Origin: a virus
Virus record (IMG/VR): IMGVR_UViG_3300044712_001906
Span: 1 to 64,000 of that record
Direction: 5' to 3' (one strand)
DNA: 64,000 nt
Part shown: piece after piece, positions 18,074-58,137 of the stretch
Position numbering within the stretch: the stretch's first letter is position 1
How the letters are laid out: each line of letters opens with the position of its first letter
The notes under the pieces: generated by a model
The model's input: the letters and a program-made list of their open reading frames with translations, nothing else
Told to the model about the DNA's origin: nothing
Databases searched by the model: none
Made by a program: the position numbers and the translations under genes

Positions 18074-18248
18074 CTGGCGGTCCATCGGAACTCGAAGAGG
18101 CAGATGTGTTCGAGGGGGCTCCTTGGCGCGGCACCTCGCCATGAAGTAGCATGCGGGAGCCTCGCGGTGGTCGCCAGGAAGTTTCGTGAAGGCGGCATGC
18201 CGTAGGCAGGGCATCCATGGACGCGCGTCGTGACATCCGGAGGAGCCT

Positions 18249-19326: not shown

Positions 19327-19739
19327 AGCGCCCCTCGCGGATCGTCGCATGGCCACCCACCGTGGACCCATCCGCTATCTGGTCCATAGAGGCGCCTCGC
19401 AGACGCCTGGTCAATGTTGGTGGGGACGGATGTTCAGCGTCAGCGCCGCATCGGCGCAATGCCTCTGCACGTGAGCGCTGCGGGACGACCGAGCGATTAG
19501 CAGCGCTTCCGACGTCTCGTACCATAGACCTCGATCAGCCGCCACTACACGAACCAGCAAGCGATCAAGCGCTGGAGCAAGCCCCGCGCTCGCATCATCC
19601 TTGGGTCCTGTGCTCCTGTCGATGTTGATGCTCGGGAAGAGCCTCAGGCGCATGGCCGGTCCCGACGTGGGAGCGGATGGGTGGGGTCTCCGCGGACTCG
19701 AGCCGTCGGAGCTCAGCGCTGGGGCGCCATGGCGATCTG

Positions 19740-43767: not shown

Positions 43768-45252
43768 TCAGAGGGTGAGCGAGACGTTCGTCCAGACCTT
43801 GTGCTTGCGCGGCGCGCGGACGTGCGGCGCCTTGAAGAGCATGGTCATGAACGGCTTGCTCGTGGCGACCTCCGCCAGCGGGCGGCGGATGACCGGGAGC
43901 AGGTTCGCGACGTAGAGCGAGTCGGGGTTCGTCTCGAGCGCGTAGACGTCGCTCGTGCCCGGGATGGACCGGTTCTCGTCGTAGAAGCCCGTCGAGTCGC
44001 CGCCCGTGCCGAGGAGGTTGCGCGCGAAGCGGCCGATGTACTTGCACGTGCTCGCGTCGCCGTCCTTGGCCGACCGGTAGACCTCGTAGAAGCGGACCGA
44101 GTAGTCGCCCGAGGTCGGCGCGTCCGAGTCCTCGATGTCGATGAACACGCGGTCGCCGCTGGCCACCGTGACCGGACCCTTCGTGATGGGCGCCGCGCTG
44201 CCCTTGTCGCCCACGGCCACGATCTTGTAGTAGTAGTCGCCCAGGTCGGCGGCCTTGAAGTTCGTGTCCCCGCCCGCGTTCGGGCTGGTCAGCGTGATGT
44301 CCCCGCCGGCGACCACGGTCGGCGCCTTGCCGGAGGCGGTGGCCTTCGGGGTCTGCGCGTGGCGGATCATGGGGGTGGGCATGAGCGGGATGGCCTCGCC
44401 CGTCGGACCGACGATGGAGAGCCGCCCGGCGTTGAAGGTCAGCATCGTGCCCGGGCCGAGGTCCATGGTCTGGAGCCGCGCCGAGGACTGCGAGAAGAGG
44501 CCGAGCAGGTTGCCGATGAGGGTCGTCGGCATGAGGATGGTGTCGACGTGCCCGTAGTACGGGTCGTCGGCGAGCTCGAAGATGCCCGAGACGAAGTCCG
44601 CGAGCTGGAGCTTGCCGCCGTCGGCGTCCACGACGTTGCCGCCCGCCACGATCTGCTTGCGGATGCCGTCGAACTCGAGGGGGCTCATGGCGGTGTCGCC
44701 GTCGAAGAGCGACCGCTCGTACTTGCGCGAGAGGGACTGGACTGCCGCGCTCGTCTGGAAGTCGAGACCCGACTTGCTCACCTGCCCGCGGCCGAGGATG
44801 TCGGTGACCGCCGCGACGTCGGTGATGGACCGCTGGACGCCCAGGTACTTGATGCGGGCGATCTTGCGGTTGATCTCCGACTCCTCCTGCTCGGTCGTGC
44901 CGCCCTCGGCGAACGCCGCCGGGATGCCGTCGTCGCCGAACTGGGTCACGGTCGCGACCTCGTAGAGGGGCGAGCCGACGGCCTTCTCCTTCAGGAGCTT
45001 CTGCAGGACGAGGTCCTTGTCCTGGAAGGTCTCCGAGGTCCACTGCGTGTCGATCGCCTGCGTGACGAGCGGGGTGAAGGCGTCCGTGAACTCCTGACCC
45101 TGCAGGATGTTCGACACGTCGGCCTTGTAGAGCGGCTCGAGCTGCGGCAGCGCCTTCAGGAGCTGCTGCTGCGTCGGAGACGCCTTCGCCATGGCGACCG
45201 CGGCGCGGATCGCCTGGAACTCCTCGAAGCTGATGGTTCCGTGCCCTTCCAT
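43768..45252 (-). CDS. Major capsid protein (HK97 fold with inserted FN3-like domain; SPO1/Twort-like)
   Basis: AFAEGG...IKYLG...ERSLFDGD...EFDGI...DADG; YYYKIVAV insertion; follows scaffold. Confidence 0.88.
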   Translation of the reverse strand: MEGHGTISFEEFQAIRAAVAMAKASPTQQQLLKALPQLEPLYKADVSNILQGQEFTDAFTPLVTQAIDTQWTSETFQDKDLVLQKLLKEKAVGSPLYEVATVTQFGDDGIPAAFAEGGTTEQEESEINRKIARIKYLGVQRSITDVAAVTDILGRGQVSKSGLDFQTSAAVQSLSRKYERSLFDGDTAMSPLEFDGIRKQIVAGGNVVDADGGKLQLADFVSGIFELADDPYYGHVDTILMPTTLIGNLLGLFSQSSARLQTMDLGPGTMLTFNAGRLSIVGPTGEAIPLMPTPMIRHAQTPKATASGKAPTVVAGGDITLTSPNAGGDTNFKAADLGDYYYKIVAVGDKGSAAPITKGPVTVASGDRVFIDIEDSDAPTSGDYSVRFYEVYRSAKDGDASTCKYIGRFARNLLGTGGDSTGFYDENRSIPGTSDVYALETNPDSLYVANLLPVIRRPLAEVATSKPFMTMLFKAPHVRAPRKHKVWTNVSLTL

Positions 45253-45276: not shown

Positions 45277-46017
45277 CTAGAGGCCGTACTTGGTGATGAC
45301 GGCCGCCGGGTCCGAGCCCGGGCGATCGATGTCTCGCGCTGCCTTCTTGAGCTCCTCACGGCGCTCGCTGGTCGTGTCGCTCGCCTTGATGAGCGCCACG
45401 ATCTTGCTGGCCACCTTGTCGCGGTCCTCGTTGGTCGGGACCGTCTGGGCGGACGGAGCGGCCGGCGTCCCCTTCGCGATCTGCTCGCCCGGTGGCGGCT
45501 GGATGACGACGTCGGCGACGTTCACGACGGCCTTGCCCGGGCGGGGCTCGGCCACGGCCTTCTCGAGCTCCCCGACCTTCGCGTGCAGCGAAGTGACGGT
45601 CTGGATGCTCGTCGCGACGGCCTTCACGAGCTCGCGGTGCGTGGCGCCGACGATCTCGAGGGCCTTGAAGAGCCCGGCGGCGCGGAGCATGGACGCGCCC
45701 TTGGCGGCCTGCTCCTCTTCGTCCTCGTCGCCGTCGTCGTCGGACGTGGCCTTGCCGTCCTCGTCGACCTTGCCGCCGCACTTGCCGCAGCACTTCTCCT
45801 CGGCCTTGGCGAGGCGCGCGGCCTCGTTGGTCGAGTCGAGGGCCTTGGCGACCTCCTCGAGGTGCCGGTCGAGCGCGGCCGGGTCGAGGTCGTTGAGCGG
45901 GTCGGTCTCCGCCTTGCACAGCCCGGCGGTGATCTGGGTCTGGACGATGGAGTCGATGAGGTCGGCTGCGAGGCCGCCCTTGGCCAGCGACTCGCGAAGC
46001 TCCTTCTCGGTCGGCAT
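45277..46017 (-). CDS. Scaffold protein
   Basis: Charged helical protein between protease and capsid; ten [LVI]xK[AG] motifs. Confidence 0.75.
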   Translation of the reverse strand: MPTEKELRESLAKGGLAADLIDSIVQTQITAGLCKAETDPLNDLDPAALDRHLEEVAKALDSTNEAARLAKAEEKCCGKCGGKVDEDGKATSDDDGDEDEEEQAAKGASMLRAAGLFKALEIVGATHRELVKAVATSIQTVTSLHAKVGELEKAVAEPRPGKAVVNVADVVIQPPPGEQIAKGTPAAPSAQTVPTNEDRDKVASKIVALIKASDTTSERREELKKAARDIDRPGSDPAAVITKYGL

Positions 46018-46844
46018 CAGCGGTACTCCTGCGCGTCGCGCAGCAACTGGATTGCCGCCTCGCGGTTGAATTCCTCCGGGAGCCGGCGGACCACGCGGGC
46101 GATGAGCACGTCGACCGGTTCGAGCCCCTTGCAGAGGCGCGCCCAGTCGATGCCTGCCCTGGCGGCCGCGGCCTTCGCGATCGCGTCAGCGGCAGGCGAC
46201 TCCTCGCGGAGCTGCGGCAGCGGACAGCCCGCCTTGGCCCACTCCTCGAGGCTCTGGTGACCCGTGCGCGCGAGGTGGGCCGTCATGCCGGCGGCCATCA
46301 CGTCGAGCCACGAGTCGAAGTTGCGCGGCGCGGGGTCCACGGCGACCGTCAGGACACGCGCCTTCGTGATGCGCTTGCGGTCCGATGGGTCGCGCTCGAG
46401 GATCTCGCCCTCGACGGAGAAGCCCAGGCGCGTCCTCGCGCCCGACTTCGCCATGCCCTTGGCCGTCTCCCAGGCCTTACGCCCGAGCGGGTTCCAGAGG
46501 AACAGCTGCCCGCGCATCTTCATCGCGGCGACGCCGTCGTCGGTCAGAGTCGGGCTGATGTCGAGGGGCTCGCCGCAGATGTTGTCGTTGCGGGCGGGGT
46601 GGCCGTAGGAGATCTTCCCGAACGACTTGAAGAACGACCAGTCGATCCCGGACTGCACGACGACCTCGTCGTCGGCGTCGCGGCGCTCCGAGGTGATGAT
46701 CCCCGACACGCGGCCGTGGTCCTCGTCACCGAGCGGCGACTGTGTGCCAGCCTTCTCGATGGGATCGCCGGCCTTCTCGAACGGCTCCGCGTCGAACGGG
46801 AGCCACGAGTAGAAGCGATCGGGCTGGGTGCGGAGGGTCGCCAT
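46017..46844 (-). CDS. Prohead protease
   Basis: GIITSERRDADDEVV..GIDW, YGH, LGFSVEG, VAVDPAPRN. Confidence 0.88.
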   Translation of the reverse strand: MATLRTQPDRFYSWLPFDAEPFEKAGDPIEKAGTQSPLGDEDHGRVSGIITSERRDADDEVVVQSGIDWSFFKSFGKISYGHPARNDNICGEPLDISPTLTDDGVAAMKMRGQLFLWNPLGRKAWETAKGMAKSGARTRLGFSVEGEILERDPSDRKRITKARVLTVAVDPAPRNFDSWLDVMAAGMTAHLARTGHQSLEEWAKAGCPLPQLREESPAADAIAKAAAARAGIDWARLCKGLEPVDVLIARVVRRLPEEFNREAAIQLLRDAQEYR

Positions 46845-46852
46845 GCCCCCCG

Positions 46853-46883
46853 ATTCAGGGGGCACGTTTCAGGGGGCGTTAAG
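46853..46883 (-). promoter_or_regulatory. Putative late promoter copy 2: CTTAACGCC-N12-CCCCCTGAAT
   Basis: Conserved motif 8 nt before the protease ATG. Confidence 0.65.
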
Positions 46884-46904: not shown

Positions 46905-49900
46905 TCACGGGTACCAGTAGTCGTACTTCGCGCCGTTCTTCTTCCGCATGCCGCCCTTCGTGCCGCCCGGGATGGCCTGCCAGCCGGCGCCAGTCGGACG
47001 CTCGCCTCCGTGCGTCGTTGATGCGGCATCGGTCGCCTTCGCGTGCTCCGCCTCGAAGGCCTTGACCTGTTCGTGGATGCCCTGCGCGCGGGCGATCTCC
47101 TGAGCCGCGATCTTGGGCTTGATGCCCCACGACTCGAGGTGCTCCGCCGTGATGCTCCCGTCGGCGACGCCCCTGACGAACTCGAGGTACGCGGCGCGGC
47201 GCGCTTCCTTCGTCGCCGTCTTGTCGCCCAGGGTCGCCCGCAGCCTGTCGAACGTCGCCCGGCTCGTCTTCGCCGCGTCCGCCCGGCGACGGAGGAGGCC
47301 CATGCCGACCTCGCCAGCCTTGCGATCTGGAGCGGACACGGTCTCAGGCTTCGCGCGATCTTCCTCGGGAGCGGCTTCCTCGTTCGGCGTCGGGGCGTCT
47401 GGCTCCGCCGCTGGGGCCTTCTCGTCGCGCTCCTCCGGGGCCTTCGTCGGCTGCTCGCTCTTGGGCTCGGACTTCTCGGGCTCGGGCTCGGGTTCGGACT
47501 TCGGTGGCTCTGCCGACTTGGGCGTCCGCTTCTTCTTCGCCCTGGCCGGCTTGGTCTTCTCGGGCTCGGGCTTGCCCTTGCCCTTGGGCGCCTTCGCGCC
47601 GTCAGGGTTGGGGGCGGCACCCGCCTTGCCCTTGCGCGGCTTCCTGGGTGTCCTCTCCGGCGCTCCCTTCGGGGCGGGCTCGGGCGCCTTCGATCCCCCG
47701 GAGGTCTCATCGATGGCGGGGTGCGGGGCGGGCGCCGGACGTGGCTTGCCCTTCGGCTTGGGCGCCACCGCGGCCGGCGAGACCGGAGCGATCGGGTCGG
47801 CGCTGGGCGACACGAACGACGCGTCCGGCTTCTGGTAGCGCGCCTGATGCTCCGCGAGCGCGTCGACGAAGCCCTGATGCGACTCCGCGACCTCGCGCTT
47901 GACGTCCCCCACGCGACGCTTCTCTCCCCCGAGCTCGATCTCCGCGTCGTCGGGGAGCTTGGCGAGCTTCTCGTGGGTGCGCGCGGTCGCGTCGACGTAG
48001 GTGGCGAGGGCCTCGTGCCGCTGGTAGTGCTTGGGGTCGTTGTAGCCCGAGGCCTCGGACGCAGCCCTGAGGTCGGCCGCGCGCTTGCGTGCCTTCTTCG
48101 ACGCCGCCTTGATGAGGTCCGCGGCCCCGGCGCTCGCGCCAGCGAATAGGCCCGTCTGGCGCTTCCCGGCGTCTTTCTCGGACCCGAGCATGTCTGCGAG
48201 GACGTCGGCTGTGCTCTTCGCTGGCCCCATGAGCGTCGACTGTCCGGCCGGGTTGCGCTGGGCGTGCTGGGCGATCTTGCGGAAGGCGTCGCTCATCTGG
48301 ACGTGCCCAGTGCGTGTCGTGATGAGGTTCAGGACGTGCTTGCCCTCGGGCGAGAGCTTGGGCTTTGACCCGAAGCCGCCCGAGTCGCCTCCGAGGAGGT
48401 CGCCGAAGCCCTGATCGCGATCGAACTCGCTCACGCTCTTGATGTTGTGCTTGCGCATGTAGGCATGCGCCTGCACCGCCTCGACGAGCGGCGCCGAGAG
48501 GTCGTGCCCGGCCGAGCCCGACCGGACGATGTGCGGGACCGAGCGCGCGATCGCCTGGATCTGGCTCTGCGGCATGTCGCTCAGCGTGTCCGCGTGCGGG
48601 ACGACCTTGCCGACGAGGAGGCGCTCGACGAAGGTCTTGCCGTCCTCGTTCAGCGCCCCGTCCTTGCCGAGGTACTGCGAGCGGTTGCGCCGATCGATGA
48701 TGCCCGCGCGCTGCATCGCGTCGACGAAAGGCCGCGCGTCGGCCGACGACAGGTACGCGTTGAGCGTCGCGTGCTTGTCCTCGCCGTTGTCGGCCTTGGC
48801 CTCCATGCCCGTGGCGAGGGTCTGGAGCATCGCCGGGGTCACGAGGCGCGCCCGGGCGACCTGGTCCGTCCGCGGGTCCATCGACTGCGTGAAGGCCTCG
48901 TTGTAGCGGCGGACGAGCACGCCGAGGTTCTGCTTGCCCTGGTCCTCGACGTCGACCTGTCGCACCAGGACCGGCTGCTTGAACTGCGACACGTCCTCGG
49001 GCGCGAGACCCCACTGGTGGGCGTTGTCCTTCAGGTGCTTGACGTAGGCCGCCCTCGCGTCGCCTCCCTTCTCGTGCGCGAGCTGGATCGACATCGTGCG
49101 CGAGTTGCCGCCGAGCACGATGCCCTTGTCGGTCACGAGCGGAGGCCCGTTGACGGCGTCGGGGTTGGTGTTCGCCACGAGGTCGGGCTTGAGCTTCTGC
49201 GCGTTCCTGAGCACCTTCTCCTGCTCTGCCTTGTCGCGATGGTAGACGCGCTCCTGAACTCCCTCCGGGTACTCCTCGCGCTGCTTGAAGCCCTTGGTGG
49301 GATCGTGCGACGCGATGAGGTCGGACGCCTCCATGAGCTTGTACCGCGCCGCCTGAGGGGTCGGAGAGCCGTCGGCGTCGGCGACGTAGACGGTCGTGCT
49401 CGAACCCGTCCCGGGCGCGGTCTCATCGCCGGCGTGCTTGGTGAGCGCGTGCCACTTCCCTTGCAGCTCGCGGTAGCGCTCGAGCTCGTCGAGCTTGCCG
49501 AGGTCCGGGTAGGCCTCAGCGGCGGCCTGGAGGCGCGCGAGCGCTGGCGACTCGACGGACTGCTTGGCGTAGGCGAGGAGCTGCTTGACGGCGCTCTCGT
49601 TGCCCTTGACCGCTTCGACGGCGCCGAGGAGCCCTTCGAGCTTCCCGAGGTCTGCGGCTGCGGCTGGGCGAAGCTCGTCGATCGCCCGTCGCGACGACGC
49701 GGCCTCGACGACGTGGGCGGGTTCGACCTGCTTGGCGCCCGAGGTGCGCCGCAGGTTCTCCGCGCCGCGGGCGATCTGCCGCCCGGCTCCCGTGACCTCG
49801 CGCCCGGTCGCCTTGTGCGTGGCCAGCGCGAGGAGGACACCCTTCGCGTCGCCGGACCATCCGGGGCGCTGCGCGAGGAAGTCGACGAGGGCCTTGGCGT

Positions 49901-52900
49901 GCTTGAGGTCCACGCCCGCGGCCTGGAAGCGATCGCCGTAGGCCTTCCACATGGCGTCGGCGGTGTCGTGGGCGCCATCGGGGAGTTTGCCGACGGACGC
50001 GAGGAGCTGGCGCGCGATGGTCTCGGCGCCGCGCTCCATCCGCGCGCGGTAGACCGCGTGGAGCTCGTCATGGAGCGCCGACAGGGGCAGCGTGCGCTCC
50101 TTGCCGGTCTTGGGGTCGCGGAGCGTCACCGAGCCGTCCTCGCCGACCTTCACGACGTCGGCGACGCCGTGACGGCGGAGGTTGATGCGCTCGCCCTCGC
50201 GCGCTTCGTGGGCGGTGGCCGCGTCGTGGTAGTAGTAGCGCCAGCCTCCCCCGGGCTTGGGCACGCGGCGGATGTACTTGTGGGAGCCGGCCTTCCAGAG
50301 CGCCTTTCCGATCTGGGCCGGGAGCTCGTGGCCGTGGGCGATGGCGGCGGAGACGGCCTTGATCAGCGAGGCATGGCGGGTGCTCGTGTCCGATGTAGCG
50401 AAGGCTTTGGCGAGGTGCCCGCCGTTCTTGAGGACGTCCATGAGCTTGCCCATGGCCGCAACGATGCGCGTGCGCTCGTCGCCGCTCGGGTAGGGCTGCG
50501 CCTCGGCCACGGCGCCGTCGGACCGCATGACGGTGACGCCGGTCCCGAAGACCTTGTCGGTGCCCGCGACCAGGTAGCCGTTCTCGCGCCCTCCCGCCTT
50601 GAGCGTGTCGTGGACGTAGGTCTCGAAGGCGCGCGCGAACAGCTCATGTGGCGACGCCCAATAGCCCTCGCCGAGCCGGACCGCCGATTTCACGAAGTCG
50701 GTCGCGGTGGCGGGCGTGTCGCGCCAAATCTTCTCCAGGCTCTTCGCGCGGTTGATGCTCAGGCGCAGGCTCTCGACGTCGCGCTCCAGCTTCGCCATGC
50801 GGGCGGCGTCCTCTGGCGTTCGGACCCGCTTGCTCTTGACCGCCTCCTCCTCGCGCTGGATCCAGTAGCTCCGCGCCTGCGCGGCCATGAGGAAGTCCTG
50901 CACCCGCTTCGGCGCCAGGCCCGGCTCGGCCGCCATGCCCTGATACTTGTCGCGCTCGGCGGCCCACTTCGTCGTGTTGAGCGCGAGGATCTCGTGGGCG
51001 CGCTTGAGCGCCGCCTCGTCGGCGACGGTCGAGCCCTTGATCTTCTCGTGCTCGCTCACGAGGTCGTTGGACTGCTGGATGAGGGCGTTGGTGTTGTCGG
51101 CCAGCGTGCGCGCGTGCTTCCGATGCGACTCTCTGGCCGCGTCGGGGTTGGGGTGCGCGGTGATCGCGTGCATCGCGGCGGAGACGGCTGCGTTGACGTC
51201 CGGCGGCAGGTTCGATCGCCCGCTGGCGTGCGACAGGAACGTGCCCTGCAGCGAGGTCGCGCTCCCGAGGTAGTGCTCCGCGATCACGTTGTCGAGCGCG
51301 TGGCCCCACTCGTGAGCTACGGACCCGCCGCCGTTCAAGCGGGTGATGTTGATCTGCTTGCGCGACGGGGCGTAATGCGCCGCGGCCGCGCCTCGCCCGT
51401 CGGCGCCCAGCGCGATTCCGAGGCGCCCCTTGAACGAGACGACCGACGGGTCGATGCCCGTCACGTCGACGAAGTCGTGCATGGCCGCTTCGAGCGCCCT
51501 GGTGTGATAGGCGCGGTCGGCCTGCGTCATGTAGCCGTCCTTCCCGTAGTCGACCTCGCGCAGCCCGAAGGCCTCGCGCATCCGCTCGGGGGAGACCCCC
51601 TCGGGCATGGGGCGCCCGCCGACGCGCTTGAACTCGCCGTCGCTGCGCTTGGCGCCGCGCCACGAGAGGGCCTCTTGTGCCGACTGGCGCCCGGAGACCT
51701 TCGGCGCCTTCTCGCCTGCCTCCTTCGGCTTCTGGCTGTCCTCCATCCACGCCCAGCCCCTCGCCTGCGCGGCCTGCGCTTCGGCGGGCGGGAGCGGGGC
51801 GCCGCGAACGAGCCCGTCCAGCTCCTTCGCCTTCTCGGTCGTGGCGTACAGGTGGCGCCCCTTGTCGAGTAGGCGTGTGAAGTTGGCCCCCAGGGCGTCG
51901 TAGGGCCGCGGGACCTTGTGAACGATGGTGAAGGCGTAGACGTGGTGGTCGTAGACGAGGCGGTACTCCTCGCCCTTGTTCGCTGCCGCCAGCGCCCGCG
52001 CCTTGTCGGACGCCTCGCGGCTCGACGCGTACTCGCCAGTCCCCGGTACGCGGGCGTACTTGCTCGCGCTCTCGCGCCGGTGCTTCATCTCCAAGAGCAG
52101 ACGGCCAATGTCCCCGAGGTCGCGGACGTTCTTGAGCGCGCCGTGAAGCTGCCGTAGGTCTTCGGCATAGGCCATTTGCTCGGCCTTGTTCGCGCCCGGC
52201 TTCTCGCGCACGGCCGAGAGGATGGCGATCGCGCAGTAGGCCGTGCCAGGCGTCATCCCGGCCGCCTTCGCGTGCGCCAGATCGATCGGCTCGACGAGGC
52301 GGCTCTTGCGGACGATGTGCGCCGCGTCGTCGTATCCGAGGCGGCTGATGTCATCCAGGCTGACGGTCGCCAGCGCCGCGAGATCCTTGCGCGAGCCCCA
52401 GACGTGATCGCCCGTGGCTTCGATCTTGCCGTCGAGGCCCTTGACCCCCTCTGGCTTCTGCCGCGGCTTGCGGGGCATTTTCTCCACCGGAGGGGTAGGC
52501 GCCGGAGCCGGAGCGGGGTCGGGAGCCGGAGCAGGCGCCGGTGGCGGGGGCGCCGGGGCGGGCTTGGCCTCGGGGGCGTCGTCGCCCTCGGGGGCATCGT
52601 CGAGCTTCCGGAGGTGGCCTTCCATCCACTCGGCCGCGGAGAGCCACGCGTCGGCGTGGTAGGTGTTGCCGGGGAGGCGCCGTTCGATCTCGGTGAACAG
52701 GTCCTTCCGGGCGCGGATCTCGGCGATGGCGGCCTGCAGCTTGCCGCGCTCCGCCGCCGCCATGGGCGCCACGGTGTCGCGGGTCAAGGCGAGGAGGTGC
52801 TCCAGGCCTTCGACCTTCTGCCGCCAGATTTCCGTCGGCGTGTGCGGGTGCTCGGCGCCGTAGTAGCCGGCGAGGTCGTCGGTGCGCCCGTCGAAGAGCT

Positions 52901-54515
52901 GCTGCAGCTCCCTCTTCGCCGCGGTCATGCTCTGCGGCACGGTGCTCTTTGGCGCGTGCCCGCGCTCCCACATGAGGAGGGCCGTCGCCGAGCGGAGGCC
53001 TGGCATCCAGGCCTGCTTGTGGAGCGCCGAGAAGTCGTCCGCGATCTGGGCGCCGGTGCGCTCGGGGGCGGGCTCGGGCGCTGGGGCTACCGGAGGAGGC
53101 AGGGCCGGTTCCTTCGCCTTCCGGTTCTTCGCAGCCGCCTCCCTCCGCTGCTTCAGCTCCGCCTCCGAGAGCCCCGCGCGCTTGGCGAGCCCTTCGGCAC
53201 GCTCGACCTGCTTCAGCGTCCCGTGCGCGTGGGCCTCGTCGAGCACGGCGCTGGCCTTCTTCTTCGCCTCGTCCATCGCGGCCGCATGCTCGCTTCGGAG
53301 GAGCTCGGCGAGCCTCTGTTTCGTGATGACCTGTGTGGCGCCCGTCTCGTCGTGTTTGACGGTGACGTGGTCGCCCGGCGACGCCCCGATGATGTGGTAG
53401 TGGCCCTCGCCGACACGGAACGCTGCGCCCACGACGAAGTGCTTCTCGTCCGCGACGCCTCCGCCATGGTGGACGGCGTAGAAGTACCTGTACCCGCCAC
53501 CGCTCTTCGGGACGCGCTTGATGTACTTGTGCCCCGCGCCCTTGAAGAGCCGCTCGCCGACGTCAGCCGGTAGGGGAACCCAGAAGCTCACGCCGCGGCG
53601 CCCGGACATCGAAGCGGCCATGGGCTCGCGGCGGAAGATGTCGACCTGGCCAGTGCCCTGCCCGTGCATGGTGACCTCGTTGGCGTGATGGACCTTCGGC
53701 CCCTGCGGCGTGTGGACGAGGACAGCCATGCGTCCCGTCCGCTCGTGGACCCCGACCGCCTTGACCTCGTGGAGGTTGCCTTCGCGGTCTCGGATGATGG
53801 CTCCGCGCTGGAGCGCCCGGCCGTGCGGGTTCTCGTGGCGCCAGGCTATGTGGTGTGCCGGGTCGACGTACCTGCCGCCCTTCGGACCGATGAAGACCGC
53901 CTGCGGGCGCGGCTTCGCCGGTGCGGCGCCCGACTTCGCGGGCTCGCCGTCTGGCACGTGCTTCGGGGCCCCGAAGAGGTCGGCCTGCGCGGCCTTCTCG
54001 ACGGAGCTCGGCCCGCCAGTCATCGCTCGAGCGCGCTCACGCCCGTCCTCGGCGACGATCTCCTGCGGGTAAACGACGGCGGCGGCGTACTGGTAGCGCT
54101 TGGCGAAGCCGTCGACCTCGTCCTCGTCTGGGCGCAGCCGGTCGCCGGAGATCGACACCGTGAGGATGACAGGCCTGCCGCCGTGCTTGGCGACGGCGCC
54201 GAGGGCGTAGGACTCGGCCGATGCCGGGCCGGTTGGCTTGGCCGTCAAGTAGACGACTGGAGCGCGCTCGGAGTCCTCGCCCGTCAGGTTGGATCGCGCG
54301 TGACAAGCGCCCAGGCCTTCCTCGAGGATGCGCGGCAGCAGGGCGGAGCTCGTGCCGTGGAAGAGGCGCACGCCCGGTTGCCCGCGGAGCTCCTCGAACG
54401 GTGGCGGGGCCATCCAGTCGATGGTGCCGCGCCAGTCGAGGTCGCCGACGTTGCGGCCGTCCTGAGGAACGAGCGTCATGCCCATCTTCTCGGGCAGGTC
54501 GATGGGCAGCGTCAT
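46905..54515 (-). CDS. Giant polyvalent head-associated protein (ART-like, LPD5/LPD1-like with HExxH, DdrB-like ParB domains)
   Basis: LFHGTS..ILEEGL..VYLT; GDHVWGSRKD; HEWGHALD; YWASPHELFARAFE; LIASHD..QERVY..GPPLV..VLGGNSR; two KYI(K/R)RVPK.GGG.RY.Y repeats. Confidence 0.8.
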   Translation of the reverse strand: MTLPIDLPEKMGMTLVPQDGRNVGDLDWRGTIDWMAPPPFEELRGQPGVRLFHGTSSALLPRILEEGLGACHARSNLTGEDSERAPVVYLTAKPTGPASAESYALGAVAKHGGRPVILTVSISGDRLRPDEDEVDGFAKRYQYAAAVVYPQEIVAEDGRERARAMTGGPSSVEKAAQADLFGAPKHVPDGEPAKSGAAPAKPRPQAVFIGPKGGRYVDPAHHIAWRHENPHGRALQRGAIIRDREGNLHEVKAVGVHERTGRMAVLVHTPQGPKVHHANEVTMHGQGTGQVDIFRREPMAASMSGRRGVSFWVPLPADVGERLFKGAGHKYIKRVPKSGGGYRYFYAVHHGGGVADEKHFVVGAAFRVGEGHYHIIGASPGDHVTVKHDETGATQVITKQRLAELLRSEHAAAMDEAKKKASAVLDEAHAHGTLKQVERAEGLAKRAGLSEAELKQRREAAAKNRKAKEPALPPPVAPAPEPAPERTGAQIADDFSALHKQAWMPGLRSATALLMWERGHAPKSTVPQSMTAAKRELQQLFDGRTDDLAGYYGAEHPHTPTEIWRQKVEGLEHLLALTRDTVAPMAAAERGKLQAAIAEIRARKDLFTEIERRLPGNTYHADAWLSAAEWMEGHLRKLDDAPEGDDAPEAKPAPAPPPPAPAPAPDPAPAPAPTPPVEKMPRKPRQKPEGVKGLDGKIEATGDHVWGSRKDLAALATVSLDDISRLGYDDAAHIVRKSRLVEPIDLAHAKAAGMTPGTAYCAIAILSAVREKPGANKAEQMAYAEDLRQLHGALKNVRDLGDIGRLLLEMKHRRESASKYARVPGTGEYASSREASDKARALAAANKGEEYRLVYDHHVYAFTIVHKVPRPYDALGANFTRLLDKGRHLYATTEKAKELDGLVRGAPLPPAEAQAAQARGWAWMEDSQKPKEAGEKAPKVSGRQSAQEALSWRGAKRSDGEFKRVGGRPMPEGVSPERMREAFGLREVDYGKDGYMTQADRAYHTRALEAAMHDFVDVTGIDPSVVSFKGRLGIALGADGRGAAAAHYAPSRKQINITRLNGGGSVAHEWGHALDNVIAEHYLGSATSLQGTFLSHASGRSNLPPDVNAAVSAAMHAITAHPNPDAARESHRKHARTLADNTNALIQQSNDLVSEHEKIKGSTVADEAALKRAHEILALNTTKWAAERDKYQGMAAEPGLAPKRVQDFLMAAQARSYWIQREEEAVKSKRVRTPEDAARMAKLERDVESLRLSINRAKSLEKIWRDTPATATDFVKSAVRLGEGYWASPHELFARAFETYVHDTLKAGGRENGYLVAGTDKVFGTGVTVMRSDGAVAEAQPYPSGDERTRIVAAMGKLMDVLKNGGHLAKAFATSDTSTRHASLIKAVSAAIAHGHELPAQIGKALWKAGSHKYIRRVPKPGGGWRYYYHDAATAHEAREGERINLRRHGVADVVKVGEDGSVTLRDPKTGKERTLPLSALHDELHAVYRARMERGAETIARQLLASVGKLPDGAHDTADAMWKAYGDRFQAAGVDLKHAKALVDFLAQRPGWSGDAKGVLLALATHKATGREVTGAGRQIARGAENLRRTSGAKQVEPAHVVEAASSRRAIDELRPAAAADLGKLEGLLGAVEAVKGNESAVKQLLAYAKQSVESPALARLQAAAEAYPDLGKLDELERYRELQGKWHALTKHAGDETAPGTGSSTTVYVADADGSPTPQAARYKLMEASDLIASHDPTKGFKQREEYPEGVQERVYHRDKAEQEKVLRNAQKLKPDLVANTNPDAVNGPPLVTDKGIVLGGNSRTMSIQLAHEKGGDARAAYVKHLKDNAHQWGLAPEDVSQFKQPVLVRQVDVEDQGKQNLGVLVRRYNEAFTQSMDPRTDQVARARLVTPAMLQTLATGMEAKADNGEDKHATLNAYLSSADARPFVDAMQRAGIIDRRNRSQYLGKDGALNEDGKTFVERLLVGKVVPHADTLSDMPQSQIQAIARSVPHIVRSGSAGHDLSAPLVEAVQAHAYMRKHNIKSVSEFDRDQGFGDLLGGDSGGFGSKPKLSPEGKHVLNLITTRTGHVQMSDAFRKIAQHAQRNPAGQSTLMGPAKSTADVLADMLGSEKDAGKRQTGLFAGASAGAADLIKAASKKARKRAADLRAASEASGYNDPKHYQRHEALATYVDATARTHEKLAKLPDDAEIELGGEKRRVGDVKREVAESHQGFVDALAEHQARYQKPDASFVSPSADPIAPVSPAAVAPKPKGKPRPAPAPHPAIDETSGGSKAPEPAPKGAPERTPRKPRKGKAGAAPNPDGAKAPKGKGKPEPEKTKPARAKKKRTPKSAEPPKSEPEPEPEKSEPKSEQPTKAPEERDEKAPAAEPDAPTPNEEAAPEEDRAKPETVSAPDRKAGEVGMGLLRRRADAAKTSRATFDRLRATLGDKTATKEARRAAYLEFVRGVADGSITAEHLESWGIKPKIAAQEIARAQGIHEQVKAFEAEHAKATDAASTTHGGERPTGAGWQAIPGGTKGGMRKKNGAKYDYWYP

Positions 54516-55691
54516 CTAGTCCTCCGCGTCGACGGCGTGCGACGGACGCATGTTCCAGTGCTTGTCGAAGGCGAAGCCTGGCGGGACGACTTGCGTGGAG
54601 CAGCGACAGTTCGGGTGCCCGGGCCACAGCCCCGCCTGCTTGTCCTCGTCCTTCACGCCCACGCCCGTCCCGTTCTCGACGAGCCGCGCCACCGTCCAGA
54701 CCTTCGGCCGCCCGCCGCCGTCGAGGTAGAGCCTCCGGCAGAGCGCGCACGCCCCCGACTCGGGGATGCGTGCGACCTGGGCGTCCGGCCCGAAGTCCCT
54801 GACCGCGGTGATCGCCACGCCCTCGTTGTGCGTCGCCTGGAGCTCCGTGCGGGCGATGCGGAGCCAGTTGCGCGTCCAGTCGCCCGTTCGGTGCCCGAGG
54901 TCGCTCGCGAGGTCCTCGGCGGTCTGCCCGGTGGCGATGGCGTCGGCCACCTCCTCGCGGATGGCCTCGCGCGTGGCGATGCGCTGGTCCTGGTCGACCT
55001 CGCTCTGGATGTCCTCGCCCTGCCAGACCTCGCGCTCGCGCGTCGCCCACTCGGTCACGTCGTTCTCGACGCGGTTGCCGAGGCCGCGCACGTACTCGGC
55101 GCCGCGCGTCCGCGCCTGGATCCACGACTCCCGTTCCTGGGGCGTCAGGTACTCCGGGGGCGCGGGGATGGGCGGCTCTCCGCCTCCTCCTCCCCCGCTC
55201 CCCCCCGGAGGGGTAGGCGGCGCAGGCGCCGATGGTCCGCCACCGTCTGCGGCCGCTGCGGGACCTCCGAGCTCCGGCGGCGCTTGCACGCGCTCGCGTA
55301 GCGCTGCCTCCGTTTGCACGGCCTGCAGCTCGTCTTCCTCGCGCCGCCGCGCGATCTCGGCGCCGACGGCCGGGAGCCAGCGCGAGAGCGGCCAAGCCCG
55401 CATCTGCTTCACGAGCGACGGGGCCGCACCGGCCATGAGCGCGCCCATGAGCAGGGCGAGCGCCCACGGGTCCATCGCAAGCTGGCTCTTCGGACCGCCT
55501 GCGCGCGCGCCACGCGAAGGTGCCGGGGCTGGCACGGCAACGGCAACGTCCACGGGCGCCTCGAGGACGCCGGCGTCGATGAGCTCGCTCATGCGCTCGG
55601 GCGTGACCGCTGACGGCCCGAAGGCCTGCACGAGCCACGCGTCGTTGTGCGCCCTGGCGATGGCTGCGGGGTCGGTGAGGGGCTCGGCCAT
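54516..55691 (-). CDS. MuF/SPP1 gp7-like head morphogenesis protein
   Basis: RIARTE, CALC, GHPNCRC. Confidence 0.88.
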   Translation of the reverse strand: MAEPLTDPAAIARAHNDAWLVQAFGPSAVTPERMSELIDAGVLEAPVDVAVAVPAPAPSRGARAGGPKSQLAMDPWALALLMGALMAGAAPSLVKQMRAWPLSRWLPAVGAEIARRREEDELQAVQTEAALRERVQAPPELGGPAAAADGGGPSAPAPPTPPGGSGGGGGGEPPIPAPPEYLTPQERESWIQARTRGAEYVRGLGNRVENDVTEWATREREVWQGEDIQSEVDQDQRIATREAIREEVADAIATGQTAEDLASDLGHRTGDWTRNWLRIARTELQATHNEGVAITAVRDFGPDAQVARIPESGACALCRRLYLDGGGRPKVWTVARLVENGTGVGVKDEDKQAGLWPGHPNCRCSTQVVPPGFAFDKHWNMRPSHAVDAED

Positions 55692-55945
55692 CACGGCCTC
55701 CCCGAGCACGCCTGCCTCGTCGCCAGGATGTCCGCGCGGAGCCGCTCGGCTCTGCGCTGGTAGGCTCGCGTCATCATCGCTGCGAGCTCGTCGAGGGCGG
55801 TCACTTCGCCGCCGGCAGGCGCGCCGACGCCCTTGGCGATCGCCTCGCGCGCCGTGTAGAACGCCTCGTCGAGACGCGCGGCGACCTCGGCGGCCGTCAG
55901 GCCGTCAAGCTCGCCAGGCCTCGACTCGACGATGGCGACGCGCAT
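55691..55945 (-). CDS. Small head-operon protein
   Basis: 84 aa; contains IAKG motif; TGATG overlap. Confidence 0.65.
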   Translation of the reverse strand: MRVAIVESRPGELDGLTAAEVAARLDEAFYTAREAIAKGVGAPAGGEVTALDELAAMMTRAYQRRAERLRADILATRQACSGRP

Positions 55946-56345: not shown

Positions 56346-57965
56346 TCAGACCTCCACCATCCACGCTCGCGCCTGCGGGCGCGTCACGGGCACGCGCCTG
56401 GCGGTTGCTCCCTTGCCGAACGCAGCAGCGAAGGCGTCCGCCGCGTCGTCCACCTGTCCGCCCGTCTCGTCGTCGAGCTGCGGCGCGCCGTCAGGCCCCT
56501 GCGGCCCGGCACCTTCCGCGTCGCCACCGTCGCCCGGCTGCCCGCCACCGTCCTGCGGCGCTGCGGCCGCCTGTGCCGCCTGGAGCCACGTGGCGTTCAG
56601 AATGACCTGCCCCTTGCCGTCCGGAAGGGGCTTCATGTCGTGCTCGGCGCGGATCTCGTCGACCATCATGAAGTGCTGGCAGCGCTTGACGTCGTTCTCG
56701 AGCTTCTCCGTCTCGCTCATCGAGTCCATGCCGGCGAACTCGAGCTCGAAGTCCTCGTTGATCGGCCAGACGATGTGCTCGTTCAGCGCGTTCTGCGCCG
56801 AGCGCACGAACGGGCGGATGCCGCCTTCCTTGGAGTTGGCAATCCGGTCGCGCGGGTTCGCGCTCGCCAGCGCGTTGGTCTGGTTCTCGTTGCCGTAGAC
56901 GTACCCGCTCTCGCTCGGGTCCATCAGGAACAAGGCGTGGATGATCTTGTTCAGGAAGCCGATCCAGACCGAGAACTCCATCTCGCGGTTGTTCGACGAG
57001 AGGTTGACGGCCTTCAGCTCCTCGTCCTTGCTCGGGTCGAGGCGGAGGATCGGGGTCTTCTTGGCGTTGCGCGGCCCCGAGAGCATCGCGCGCACGTACT
57101 GCGTGAACGCGGCGAAGTTCTTGGGATCCATCGCGCTCTTGAGCGTGAGGATCGTGCTGACGTGGACACCATTCGTGAAGTTCGCGTCGTTGTAGGCCGC
57201 CGCGTTCAGGTAGCTCTGGAGGACCTGCACGGCCTCGTCGAGCTCGGGGAAGCCGTAGCCGCAGACGTTGACGTCGGTCCGCGGGCGACGGACGCAGAAC
57301 GCGAGCTCGTCGCCGTCGAACTGCTGGACGATGCGCCCCTGGATGACCTGCGCGAACTGGCGCTCGGACGGCGGACGGCCCGTGCTCAGGTCCTTGGGCC
57401 GAGCGATCCGAATCGTCGACCCGTCCACGGCGCGGAAGCCAGCGGGGCGGTTGCCCTTGCTGTAGAGCTTCTCGAAGCAGGCCTGGTCGTAGATGAGCGC
57501 GTCACGGCCCCAGAGCCGGAGGAAGGTCTCGAGCGAGCCGTTGCCGTGCTTGCCGCCCGTCGTCAGGACGAGCTTCGTCAGGTCTCGGATGACCTTCTGC
57601 GCCGCCCGCGTCGGATGCGCCTTGGGGTCGCGCATCTTGATGACCGTGCCGATGCCGTACCGGTTGGGCTGCGGAACGGCGAACTCGGCGAGCTGATTGA
57701 TGCGCCTGGAGATGATCGGCGCGACGACCGGCACCCGGGCCATGCGGGCGAGCGCATCGTAGGTCAGACCGATCGTGCCGTGATGGGTCGGGTCCTGCGC
57801 GCCGAACCAGAACGCCATCTGCAGCGGGTCGAACGCCCATGCCTCGCCAGGCACGGTGGGCGGCGGCGGGACTGATGCGGATGCGGGCGCCACGTCGCCC
57901 GGGTCCTGCCTCCGTCTGGCCTTGCCGAGGCCGAAGGCCCGCTTCGTCGCGTCCCAGAAGCCCAC
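56346..57965 (-). CDS. Portal protein
   Basis: F.AVDGSTI, GYGFPEL, REMEF..W, F.MDPSE.G, SKEGGIRP, DEIRAEHDMKPLPDG; start taken at GTG 57965. Confidence 0.92.
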   Translation of the reverse strand: MGFWDATKRAFGLGKARRRQDPGDVAPASASVPPPPTVPGEAWAFDPLQMAFWFGAQDPTHHGTIGLTYDALARMARVPVVAPIISRRINQLAEFAVPQPNRYGIGTVIKMRDPKAHPTRAAQKVIRDLTKLVLTTGGKHGNGSLETFLRLWGRDALIYDQACFEKLYSKGNRPAGFRAVDGSTIRIARPKDLSTGRPPSERQFAQVIQGRIVQQFDGDELAFCVRRPRTDVNVCGYGFPELDEAVQVLQSYLNAAAYNDANFTNGVHVSTILTLKSAMDPKNFAAFTQYVRAMLSGPRNAKKTPILRLDPSKDEELKAVNLSSNNREMEFSVWIGFLNKIIHALFLMDPSESGYVYGNENQTNALASANPRDRIANSKEGGIRPFVRSAQNALNEHIVWPINEDFELEFAGMDSMSETEKLENDVKRCQHFMMVDEIRAEHDMKPLPDGKGQVILNATWLQAAQAAAAPQDGGGQPGDGGDAEGAGPQGPDGAPQLDDETGGQVDDAADAFAAAFGKGATARRVPVTRPQARAWMVEV

Positions 57966-57971
57966 GCTACA

Positions 57972-58001
57972 ACGGTGGGGCCGATGCGGCAGGGCGTTAA
58001 G
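57972..58001 (-). promoter_or_regulatory. Putative late promoter copy 3: CTTAACGCC-N12-CCCCACCGT
   Basis: Conserved motif 6 nt before the portal GTG. Confidence 0.65.
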
Positions 58002-58137
58002 GCGGCCGGGGCCGCCGCGGTCGAGCTCGTTGCTGGTCTGCTTGCCGATGCCGACCGCTATGGATGGCCCGTGGACCTCCGAGAAGCAGTCACGTTGGAC
58101 GCCCGGAAGTCGTCTCGCGACGTTCCGGCTCCCGTCA

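What the first reader, a model, noticed from the sequence alone, without database searches (positions are those of the whole stretch)
46905..54515. Giant head-operon protein looks like a protease-processed polyprotein of ejected effectors
Seen: the 2536-aa ORF sits between MuF and the prohead protease. Hydrophobic-x-K-[A/G] motifs fall at its apparent domain boundaries: VEKA (aa ~172), LFKG (~323), LAKA/LIKA/IGKA/LWKA (~1368-1409) and LIKA (~2134). The same motif occurs ten times in the 246-aa scaffold, three times in the capsid N-terminus (MAKA, LLKA, LYKA), at both ends of the protease (FEKA, IEKA; IAKA, LCKG) and near both ends of the portal (LGKA, FGKG). Known: SPO1/Twort/A511-type capsids are matured by cleavage after a Lys in such motifs, and polyvalent LPD/DdrB proteins are linked to anti-defence cargo such as the P1 Dar system. 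Inference: the protein is packaged whole and cut into about five effectors (ART-like; small beta domain; LPD5/LPD1 metallopeptidase-like; ParB-like; basic tail) that are injected with the DNA, making a modular cassette-style delivery system.
Basis: partly seen in the sequence, partly recalled or inferred. Interest (0 to 1): 0.88.

Follow-up and report, generated by a model that had tools for sequence, protein, structure and literature searches.

The report
Protease-cut cargo polyprotein in phage head
A 2536-residue multi-enzyme protein in the head gene cluster of an uncultured 78-kb phage carries the phage's own head-protease cutting motif at the borders of its building blocks, and each block starts with a previously undescribed tag domain, so it is probably loaded into the capsid, cut into about five pieces and delivered with the DNA.

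Summary
[LIVFMW]xK[AGS] is strongly over-represented against shuffles in the scaffold (10 seen, 1.3 expected), the protease (8, 0.9) and the capsid protein (6, 1.8). The same holds in related phages (scaffolds 7.5x, proteases 5x) and is specific for Lys.

The giant protein as a whole is not enriched (12 seen, 10.5 expected). Its sites at residues 172, 323, 1368, 1406 and 2134 are nevertheless conserved in relatives (67-96% for four of them; 172 kept in its one homologue). They lie at homology-block borders or in predicted flexible linkers. The other sites are not conserved.

Two sites open a roughly 125-residue domain, an SH3-like barrel plus helices, that is not in Pfam or PHROGs:
- It has 866 clusters in 1.84 billion representative proteins.
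- 96% of copies start with the motif.
- It sits behind a roughly 25-residue leader at the N-terminus of single-cargo head-operon proteins (methylases, helicases, ParB, ART).
- It recurs up to four times inside polyvalent proteins.

That polyvalent proteins are packaged and processed was proposed in 2017, with their own metallopeptidase as the enzyme. The prohead-protease code and the tag domain are the new elements. The scan's other notes on this feature are all from this same genome.

The parts
46905..54515 (-). Giant polyvalent protein gene (2536 aa plus stop)
   Evidence: Open frame, GC3 0.92. Pfam LPD1 and ddrB-ParB. 125 polyvalent homologues.
53994..54515 (-). Predicted fragment 1, aa 1-174: N-terminal domain, possibly ART/Tpt1-like
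   Evidence: 73% identical to the N-terminus of P0002, and homology ends at VEK|AA. Protein-atlas leads to Arr, DarT and Tox-ART. Weak NCBIfam hit to RNA 2'-phosphotransferase, E 0.055.
53991..54002 (-). Site VEK|A (aa 172-175) in a Gly/Pro/Ser-rich linker
   Evidence: Kept in P0002, after which the two proteins diverge. Low-hydrophobicity stretch 161-200.
53541..53993 (-). Predicted fragment 2, aa 175-325: starts AAQADLF, holds a short IGPKGG..W element, ends with the leader of tag domain 1
   Evidence: The short element recurs in P0010, P0022, P0006 and P0009. In homologues it often follows an hxK| site directly.
53172..53549 (-). Tag domain copy 1 (aa 323-448), opening with LFK|G then GHKYIKRVP..YRYFY
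   Evidence: HMM and alignments. AlphaFold2 pLDDT 91, with the site in a coil at pLDDT about 73. Site conserved in 149 of 155 aligned homologue segments.
51126..51638 (-). Zincin-like metallopeptidase block (aa 960-1130) with HEWGH at aa 1068-1072
   Evidence: Conserved block in 76 homologues. Motif position. PHROG 616 and 29900 matches.
50424..50675 (-). LPD1 domain (aa 1281-1364)
   Evidence: Pfam PF18796, E 6e-18.
50289..50414 (-). Linker with four sites: LAK|A, LIK|A, IGK|A, LWK|A (aa 1368-1409)
   Evidence: Cluster p about 0.003. AlphaFold2 pLDDT below 60 for aa 1374-1413 between two confident domains. LAK|A conserved 90%, LWK|A 94%.
49944..50300 (-). Tag domain copy 2 (aa 1406-1524)
   Evidence: HMM E 1.6e-31. 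These are the only two copies in the 77.9-kb genome.
48108..50291 (-). Predicted fragment 4, aa 1409-2136: tag domain 2 plus ddrB-ParB unit (ParB at aa 1722-1854)
   Evidence: Conserved as one block in P0003, P0006, P0007, P0008, P0010 and P0019, with ends at 1396-1406 and 2097-2125. Pfam PF18763.
48105..48158 (-). End of the ParB unit: QTGLF (aa 2120-2124) then LIK|A (aa 2134-2137)
   Evidence: Relatives show the same Q..[LM]F-then-hxK| arrangement. Site conserved in 4 of 6 aligned homologues.
46908..48107 (-). Predicted fragment 5, aa 2137-2536: helical part, about 150-aa Pro/Lys/Glu-rich basic low-complexity tail, C-terminal element ending KYDYWYP
   Evidence: Composition scan. C-terminal element recurs in other polyvalent proteins.
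46017..46865 (-). Prohead serine protease
   Evidence: phrog_1028, E 1e-20. Invariant H89 and S150, near-invariant K31 of the N-terminal FEK|A, in 15 relatives. Motif 8 seen, 0.88 expected.
45277..46017 (-). Scaffold protein with ten hxK[AG] sites
   Evidence: Position between protease and MCP. 10 seen, 1.31 expected. Same in relatives, 7.5x overall.
43768..45252 (-). Major capsid protein, SPO1/phi812/A511 type; predicted mature N-terminus A44 after LYK43
   Evidence: PDB matches 9vel, 9row and 5lii. The register of the mature-length chain 9row maps its first residue to A44. The A511 mature peptide starts after ALK|S.
54516..55709 (-). MuF-like minor head protein; its TAG stop abuts the giant gene's ATG in frame
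   Evidence: Pfam and PHROG matches. Junction sequence with a GGAGGA ribosome-binding site.
56346..58190 (-). Portal protein (N-terminal part of the ORF is doubtful)
   Evidence: Pfam PF04860, phrog_12. The L002 portal aligns only from residue 120 onward.

Best explanation
The gene encodes a polyvalent capsid-cargo protein. It is made with the head proteins and taken into the prohead. There the prohead serine protease, which cuts after Lys in h-x-K|[A/G/S], would trim the capsid protein N-terminus and degrade the scaffold. It would also cut the giant protein at a few exposed, conserved sites.

The predicted products are about five pieces plus short spacer peptides:
- aa 1-174: possible ART-like domain.
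- aa 175-325: small basic piece.
- aa 326-1370: tag domain, zincin and LPD1.
- aa 1409-2136: tag domain and ParB-like unit.
- aa 2137-2536: basic tail.

The pieces would leave with the DNA and act early in the host, in the manner of T4 Alt and internal proteins and the P1 Dar proteins.

The repeated unit is a leader helix, LxK|G, and an SH3-like tag domain. It is the common N-terminal element of cargo proteins in this phage group. I take it to be the head-loading or delivery adaptor.

Shown here: the motif statistics, site conservation, block borders, predicted linker location, and the distribution of the domain family. Inferred: the cutting itself, packaging, injection, and the role of the tag.
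For: 1. The motif behaves as a protease code.
- Scaffold 10 seen, 1.3 expected; protease 8, 0.9; MCP 6, 1.8; tail proteins about 0.
- In relatives: scaffolds 92 seen, 12.2 expected; proteases 86, 17.2.
- Lys-specific and register-specific: R, E and Q variants give 0.8-0.9x in scaffolds.
- The MCP is of SPO1/phi812/A511 type. The mature N-terminus of that type maps to A44 after LYK. The annotated A511 mature peptide starts after ..ALK|S.
- The protease has invariant His and Ser, and a near-invariant Lys in its N-terminal hEK|A.

2. Sites in the giant protein.
- Conserved: 323 in 96%, 1406 in 94%, 1368 in 90%, 2134 in 67% of aligned homologue segments. The other sites: 7-42%.
- Homology with P0002 stops exactly at VEK|AA.
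- The ParB unit 1406 to about 2125 is a block whose C-end carries hxK| in most close relatives.
- BLAST alignment-segment (HSP) ends cluster near sites (p 0.003-0.03).
- AlphaFold2 places LFK|G in a coil before the domain. The 1384-1409 sites fall in the only low-confidence linker of aa 1234-1530, with LAK|A 1368-1371 at its edge. The non-conserved FVKS lies in a confident helix.

3. Cassette nature.
- The tag domain starts with the motif in 93 of 106 copies and 184 of 191 copies.
- It is N-terminal, behind a conserved leader of about 25 aa, in single-cargo proteins. These are encoded between portal/MuF and protease and carry varied effector domains.
- It occurs up to four times inside polyvalent proteins.
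- L002 has four separate genes, each with its own ribosome-binding site, where relatives have fusions.

4. Precedents from papers.
- P1 DdrB and DarB are head-packaged; DarB has an N-terminal targeting signal (PMC9024508).
- A 2811-aa LPD protein was detected in phi24B virions (bioRxiv 10.64898/2026.04.10.717836).
- Polyvalent proteins were predicted to be packaged and processed (PMC5512222).
Against: - No proteomic or biochemical datum exists for this phage or any relative.
- Motif density in the giant protein is at chance, as it is in polyvalent proteins generally (1.13x).
- At the tag domain the motif is part of a conserved sequence block. Its conservation there could reflect folding or binding rather than cutting.
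- The protein has an intact zincin motif, which could do the processing, as Iyer et al. proposed.
- VEK|A conservation rests on a single homologue, and LIK|A on six.
- No cultured phage carries the tag domain, so nothing can be transferred from a studied system.
Confidence: 0.6

Rival explanations
1. The protein is packaged, but it is processed by its own zincin metallopeptidase or not at all. The hxK[AG] at the start of the tag domain would then be a structural or binding motif, for example for docking to the scaffold or capsid interior, and not a scissile site.
For: An intact HEWGH motif in a block conserved across 76 polyvalent proteins. Iyer et al. 2017 propose autoprocessing by this domain. 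Overall motif density is at chance. The motif lies at a mostly fixed distance from GHKY in most copies.
Against: Most single-cargo proteins with the leader-motif-tag unit show no peptidase domain. Conserved sites also occur away from any tag domain: VEK|A, HLAK|A after LPD1, and hxK| after ParB units. The same Lys-specific motif fills scaffolds, which are classical protease substrates. The sites lie in predicted flexible segments.
Confidence: 0.22
2. The tag domain is a self-cleaving module that cuts at its own N-terminal LxK|G, using its invariant His, Asp and Glu residues.
For: Invariant K, four His and an H-D-E triplet in 53 diverse members. The cut site always lies immediately upstream of the domain. 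No match to a known fold assigns another function.
Against: The identical motif is abundant in scaffolds, proteases and capsid N-termini, which lack the domain. Conserved sites exist without an adjacent tag domain. A small SH3-like barrel is not a known protease fold. The invariant residues could equally bind a metal or nucleic acid.
Confidence: 0.05
3. The protein is not virion cargo. It would act in the producing cell, as an assembly factor or a late anti-defence enzyme, and the site pattern would be a by-product of shared ancestry of linker sequences.
For: There is no direct evidence of packaging. A roughly 270-kDa protein is bulky for the capsid of a 78-kb genome.
Against: The gene is translationally coupled to MuF inside the portal-to-capsid operon. 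The same position holds in dozens of relatives. ddrB-ParB and LPD proteins are found in virions of P1 and phi24B (PMC9024508; bioRxiv 10.64898/2026.04.10.717836). The sites are conserved where the flanking sequence is not.
Confidence: 0.08

Closest known systems
Polyvalent proteins of phages and conjugative elements (Iyer, Burroughs, Anand, de Souza, Aravind 2017, PMC5512222)
   Same: Multi-domain giant protein with LPD1, ddrB-like ParB and a zincin metallopeptidase, encoded next to virion genes. Predicted there to be packaged, processed into units and injected.
   Different: That work names the protein's own metallopeptidase as the processing enzyme. It does not describe a prohead-protease motif at unit borders. 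Its Pfam-deposited families give no match to the leader-LxK|G-tag domain found here.
T4 internal proteins and Alt with capsid targeting sequence, cut by gp21
   Same: Cargo proteins, including an ADP-ribosyltransferase, with a short N-terminal leader. They are taken into the prohead, trimmed by the prohead protease at a simple motif shared with scaffold and capsid protein, then injected.
   Different: The T4 motif is (L/I)xE|, whereas here it is hxK|[AGS]. T4 cargo proteins are separate small proteins. Here several units are fused, and a folded tag domain of about 125 aa follows the cut.
phiKZ / SPN3US ejection and inner-body proteins (PMC10052503, PMC7411985)
   Same: Many head-internal proteins are cut, some at several sites, by the prohead protease before ejection.
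   Different: Different protease specificity (cut after Glu), jumbo-phage context, no polyvalent LPD/ParB architecture, and no shared tag domain.
Phage P1 Dar system (DarB, DdrB, DarA, Hdf; PMC9024508)
   Same: Very large anti-restriction proteins and a ddrB-ParB protein are loaded into the head. DarB has a 30-residue N-terminal targeting signal. DdrB is processed.
   Different: P1 cuts its capsid protein after Glu120. No common targeting sequence is known among the Dar proteins. DarA/Hdf homologues were not looked for here. The P1 proteins are separate genes.
A511 / phi812 / SPO1-type head maturation (Herelleviridae)
   Same: Homologous capsid protein. The A511 capsid protein is matured by a cut after Lys23..ALK|S.
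   Different: In A511 the scaffold-like gp85 is not enriched for the motif (2 seen, 1.5 expected). tblastn with the tag domain found no match in 50,697 GenBank phage records, which include A511. Whether the A511 head operon holds a polyvalent protein was not examined.

Membership tests
Polyvalent protein (sensu Iyer et al. 2017) | Two or more effector-type domains of the polyvalent repertoire in one polypeptide | tested here: met
   Pfam LPD1 (E 6e-18) and ddrB-ParB (E 2e-18). Zincin HEWGH block.
Polyvalent protein (sensu Iyer et al. 2017) | Encoded by a phage or conjugative element, in phages next to virion genes | tested here: met
   IMG/VR virus record of 77.9 kb. The gene lies between MuF and the prohead protease.
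Polyvalent protein (sensu Iyer et al. 2017) | Mosaic domain shuffling among homologues | tested here: met
   125 homologues with different domain sets. Block-wise homology.
Prohead serine protease (HK97/T4 gp21-like) | Conserved catalytic His and Ser | tested here: met
   H89 and S150 (in GFSVEG) are invariant in 15 relatives.
Prohead serine protease (HK97/T4 gp21-like) | Match to a curated protease family model | tested here: inconclusive
   phrog_1028 'head maturation protease', E 1e-20. No Pfam or NCBIfam hit and no PDB sequence match. The fold was not predicted.
SPO1/A511-type capsid protein matured after Lys | Homology to the SPO1, phi812 and A511 major capsid proteins | tested here: met
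   PDB 9vel E 5e-15, 9row and 5lii E 2e-13. tblastn to Herelleviridae.
SPO1/A511-type capsid protein matured after Lys | Lys at the position aligned with the known maturation cut | tested here: met
   The offset of the mature-length chain 9row puts its first residue at A44, after LYK43. A511 mat_peptide starts after K23. The cut itself is not testable here.
T4-type capsid-targeting-sequence cargo | N-terminal leader removed by the prohead protease at the motif shared with scaffold and capsid protein | not testable with these tools
   A conserved leader of about 25 aa ends in hxK|G in single-cargo relatives. Removal has not been observed.
T4-type capsid-targeting-sequence cargo | Cut after Glu in (L/I)xE | tested here: not met
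   The Glu variant of the motif is not enriched (0.9x). The Lys variant is enriched 5-7x.
MuF-fused polymorphic toxin or effector | MuF domain and effector in one polypeptide | tested here: not met
   MuF ends with TAG. The giant gene has its own ATG and GGAGGA site, although it is in frame and directly abutting.
P1 Dar system | DdrB-like ParB protein in the head operon | tested here: met
   Pfam PF18763.
P1 Dar system | DarA/Hdf/DarB partners | not tested
   No search for these proteins was made.
ADP-ribosyltransferase (N-terminal domain) | Recognisable ART fold or family match | tested here: inconclusive
   Atlas feature hits to Arr, DarT/PARP and Tox-ART clusters at 0.92-0.93. NCBIfam RNA 2'-phosphotransferase E 0.055. 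No Pfam or PDB sequence match.

The most novel reading that the evidence does not exclude
The leader-LxK|G-SH3-like domain is a portable capsid-loading and delivery tag used by a whole clade of uncultured phages with SPO1-like capsids. Any enzyme placed behind it is loaded into the head. Strings of tagged units are separated by the prohead protease. The cuts also expose terminal signals, such as Q..[LM]F sliding-clamp-binding-like motifs, that direct the pieces in the host. That would make it a natural, programmable multi-cargo protein delivery system.
Probability: 0.35. Interest if true: 0.85.

Novelty: new variant of a known kind. Interest (0 to 1): 0.68.

Why it matters
How phages load, organise and release protein cargo, including giant polyvalent proteins, is an open question. 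The phi24B cryo-EM authors ask it explicitly for their 2811-aa protein.

This work offers three concrete, testable things:
- A simple cutting code, h-x-K|[A/G/S].
- A defined leader plus a domain of about 125 residues that marks each cargo unit.
- A residue-level map of the predicted products.

If confirmed, it would shift the processing of polyvalent proteins from their own peptidase to the head protease. It would define a large unannotated domain family (866 clusters). It would also give a candidate tag for loading foreign proteins into capsids, as the T4 and P1 targeting sequences do.

Tried and rejected
The contigs of P0002, P0003 and P0007 could not be fetched, so context came from the search for related loci instead.
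- blastn of the head genes against GenBank phages gave no match. The protease as a single query against IMG/VR found nothing. Alignment A1 was too diverse for a pattern scan.
- The tag domain has no match in Pfam at E<=1, in PHROGs, or in 50,697 phage records by tblastn.
- Foldseek against PDB gave only short SH3-like pieces (E above 0.1). BFVD gave one homologous uncharacterised DdrB-like protein. The wide VIA-align search matched only the helical part at Z below 8, which is uninformative.
- Complex prediction on protease, scaffold and leader-tag gave no verdict (score 0.00). This is not evidence either way.
- The N-terminal domain has only one solo homologue and no PDB match by profile. The ART assignment stays a lead.
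- The Felix O1 and Bc431v3 papers held nothing on cuts after Lys.
- Motif density as evidence for the giant protein was rejected. The portal sites were also rejected as evidence: they are at chance and the ORF start is doubtful.
- The GTDB genome scan found only two loci. One is in a Myxococcales MAG next to a portal gene, which is a weak host lead.
Full report
**Context.** The window is 64 kb of a 77.9-kb IMG/VR virus record that CheckV estimates as complete. It has about 70% G+C. The phage is a myovirus, with tail sheath, tube and baseplate genes on the minus strand.

The head operon reads, on the minus strand:
- portal (56346-58190);
- two small ORFs;
- a MuF-like protein (54516-55709);
- the 2536-aa ORF (46905-54515);
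- a head maturation protease (46017-46865);
- a 246-aa scaffold (45277-46017);
- the major capsid protein (43768-45252).

The capsid protein is a distant relative of the SPO1, phi812 and A511 capsid proteins. The giant gene's ATG directly follows MuF's TAG, in frame, with a GGAGGA site four bases upstream.

**The observation.** Against 1000 shuffles of each protein, [LIVFMW]xK[AGS] occurs 10 times in the scaffold (1.3 expected), 8 times in the protease (0.9) and 6 times in the capsid protein (1.8). Three of the capsid sites are in the first 44 residues. Tail proteins have none or one.

The giant protein has 12 sites against 10.5 expected, so density there is at chance. The portal is also at chance. 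The enrichment is specific for Lys and for the register. In ten scaffolds of related phages the Lys motif is 7.2-fold over expectation. The Arg, Glu and Gln variants and a shifted register are at 0.8-1.0.

**Is it a protease code?** Four lines of evidence point that way.
- In the PDB matches, the full-length phi812-type chain (5lii) and a chain of mature length (9row) differ by 24 N-terminal residues. Carrying that register into the window's capsid protein puts the mature N-terminus at A44, directly after LYK43.
- The GenBank record of Listeria phage A511 annotates the mature capsid protein as starting after ..ALK|S.
- The protease family here has invariant His and Ser (GFSVEG). The Lys of the N-terminal hEK|A is kept in over 90% of 15 relatives, as expected for self-trimming.
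- In 57 related loci, every locus with a recognisable protease and following ORF repeats the pattern. Overall, scaffolds have 92 sites against 12.2 expected, and proteases 86 against 17.2.

I take h-x-K|[A/G/S] as the cutting motif with about 85% confidence. No cut has been observed in this phage group.

**The giant protein.** Pfam finds LPD1 (1281-1364) and ddrB-like ParB (1722-1854). There is a zincin HEWGH at 1068-1072, inside a block shared with 76 other polyvalent proteins. A search of 5.8 billion proteins returned 125 large homologues with very different domain sets: cytosine methylase, SNF2 helicases, topoisomerase IB, Zeta-like kinases, InPase and others. That is the hallmark of polyvalent proteins (PMC5512222).

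Homology is block-wise:
- P0002 shares residues 1-177, then jumps to 1234. The two sequences are alike up to VEK|AA and unrelated after it.
- Residues 1406 to about 2125 form one block that moves as a unit among P0003, P0006, P0007, P0008, P0010 and P0019.
- The C-terminal edge of that block carries an hxK|[AGS] in most close relatives, although the flanking residues differ.

Site-by-site conservation in aligned homologue segments is shown below.

| Site (residue) | Conserved |
|---|---|
| LFKG 323 | 96% |
| LWKA 1406 | 94% |
| LAKA 1368 | 90% |
| LIKA 2134 | 67% |
| LIKA 1384 | 42% |
| VRKS 735 | 37% |
| 335, 883, 1274, 1402, 1522 | 7-14% |

Other measurements agree:
- Four sites in 42 residues (1368-1409) is unusual (p about 0.003).
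- BLAST alignment-segment (HSP) ends fall near sites more often than near random Lys residues (p 0.003 at ±5 residues). The HSPs are not independent, and tag-domain starts dominate this result.

The remaining motif hits look like chance.

**A new repeated domain.** LFKG 323 and LWKA 1406 are the first residues of a roughly 125-residue unit that occurs twice in this protein. It occurs nowhere else in the genome. The unit reads LxK[GA], then GHKY[IL][KR]RVP, a turn, YRYFY, a small beta domain with invariant GH and HDE(T/S)G, then helices.

- **Structure.** AlphaFold2 on a 48-sequence alignment gives mean pLDDT 91. The model shows a short leader helix and a coil holding LFK|G (pLDDT about 73). 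These are followed by a hairpin, an SH3-like barrel and three helices.
- **Known folds.** No convincing match was found in PDB. The one good BFVD hit is an uncharacterised homologue.
- **Libraries.** It is absent from Pfam and PHROGs and from 50,697 GenBank phage records.
- **Distribution.** A profile search of 1.84 billion representative proteins found 866 clusters, 687 of them at E<=1e-10.
- **Motif at the start.** In that independent set, 184 of 191 complete copies start with the motif, with Lys in 180. In the first set it was 93 of 106. That set also had a further 0.83 sites in the 40 residues upstream, against 0.22 background.
- **Position.** Seventy-three of 105 single-copy proteins carry the domain within 60 residues of the N-terminus. 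It lies behind a conserved leader of about 25 residues, of the type ..E[LI]P.W[LM]...L[LW]..hxK|G. The internal 'spacers' of the giant protein are homologous to these leaders.
- **Cargo.** Single-copy proteins carry cytosine methylase, Sno/SNF2 helicases, InPase, ddrB-ParB, ART-PolyVal, LPD1 and others.
- **Gene context.** In the loci these genes mostly lie within or next to the head gene cluster, often between portal/MuF and the protease.
- **Split against fused.** Locus L002 has four consecutive genes, each with its own ribosome-binding site and tag domain. Relatives such as P0003 have fusions with four tag domains.

**Linker location.** A second AlphaFold2 run covered residues 1234-1530. 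It gives confident helices for LPD1 and a confident second tag domain. Between them lies a single low-confidence stretch, 1374-1413 (pLDDT 45-56), which holds LIK|A, IGK|A and LWK|A, with LAK|A at its edge. The non-conserved FVKS 1274 sits inside a confident helix. VEK|A and LIK|A lie in Gly/Ala/Ser/Pro-rich stretches.

The motif after LPD1 is conserved only in one subgroup (11 of 26). Several of those copies come from loci fetched for this head type. The other subgroup has an unrelated sequence at the same place, which argues that the motif is not needed for the LPD1 fold.

**Mechanism proposed.** The protein is made with the head proteins and enters the prohead. It is cut after K174, K325, K1370 (and within the spacer up to K1408) and K2136. 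This gives pieces of about 19, 16, 113, 79 and 43 kDa, which would be ejected with the DNA. The leader and tag domain are most simply read as the loading adaptor.

This parallels known systems:
- T4 internal proteins and Alt (leader, gp21 cut, injection).
- phiKZ/SPN3US ejection proteins (PMC10052503).
- P1 DarB, which has an N-terminal targeting signal, and P1 DdrB, a ParB-type protein found in heads (PMC9024508).
- phi24B, where a 2811-aa LPD protein was detected in virions (bioRxiv 10.64898/2026.04.10.717836).

Packaging, cutting and injection are all inferred.

**Rivals.**
- **Processing by the protein's own zincin.** This is what Iyer et al. proposed, and it remains possible, perhaps in addition. 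It does not explain the same sites in single-cargo proteins that show no peptidase domain, nor the scaffold pattern.
- **A self-cleaving tag domain.** The invariant His, Asp and Glu residues suggest it. It is less economical, because the motif abounds where the domain is absent.
- **A purely structural role of LxKG.** This cannot be excluded at the tag domain. It fits poorly with conserved sites that have no tag domain next to them.

**Novelty.** The general concept is known. Three things are new:
- The Lys-type code shared by scaffold, protease, capsid protein and polyvalent cargo in a clade of uncultured phages.
- The large unannotated leader-tag domain family.
- The evidence that polyvalent proteins of this clade are strings of tagged cargo units that also exist as single genes.

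Earlier notes of this scan on the same genome had already flagged the repeated tag, the shared code, the ART-like N-terminus and the Q..LF motifs. No note from other DNA exists.

Noticed in passing
window 48144-48158 and 53973-53987 (giant aa 2120-2124 QTGLF; aa 177-181 QADLF): Q..[LM]F motifs, which resemble sliding-clamp-binding motifs, sit next to predicted cuts. After the ParB unit, 15 of 74 homologues have one within 60 residues (background 0.036 per 60 aa), and in 13 an hxK| site follows, often as ..MFK|A. A cut there would leave the motif at the very C-terminus. In the giant protein, QADLF would lie 3 residues from a new N-terminus.
   Followed up: partly
window about 53841-53900 (giant aa about 206-225) and 46908-46960 (C-terminus): A second short element, [YF]IGP[KR]GG[KR][WY].D..H...W, recurs many times in polyvalent homologues and often follows an hxK| site directly. 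It looks like another post-cut tag. The protein's last residues (..GAKYDYWYP) are a related recurring element.
   Followed up: partly
window 54510-54530: MuF's TAG stop is followed at once, in frame, by the giant gene's ATG, with a GGAGGA site upstream. This indicates translational coupling. Read-through of the single stop would give a MuF-polyvalent fusion like those common elsewhere.
   Followed up: no
window 58138-61644 (minus strand): A 1168-aa ORF just upstream of the portal, where a terminase might be expected. It gives weak matches to adenine methyltransferases of BREX PglX and MADS type and to phrog_25988. It is possibly a fused restriction-modification-like enzyme.
   Followed up: no
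window 57920-58190 (portal ORF N-terminus): The first roughly 90-120 residues of the listed portal ORF (TTG start, overlapping the upstream gene) have no counterpart in the L002 portal and look non-coding.
   Followed up: partly
L003 (Listeria phage A511) 2302-3096 and 4152-5555: The A511 protease carries, after FMK|S, a stretch closely resembling the mature N-terminus of its capsid protein after ALK|S (..TTG.G.TPDTQ..AGALRRE). The protease seems to mimic its substrate's new end.
   Followed up: no
L002 11890-11910, 16225-16240, 22400-22420: A GAAAGCTCAC word recurs just around the stop codons of three consecutive cargo genes in the related phage. Its meaning is unknown.
   Followed up: no
L060 (Myxococcales MAG chromosome CP070713.1) 7465-19456: One of only two hits in 185,579 species genomes. 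A 1715-aa tag-domain protein lies next to a portal gene, flanked by two motif-rich ORFs. It is a possible prophage and a weak host lead.
   Followed up: partly
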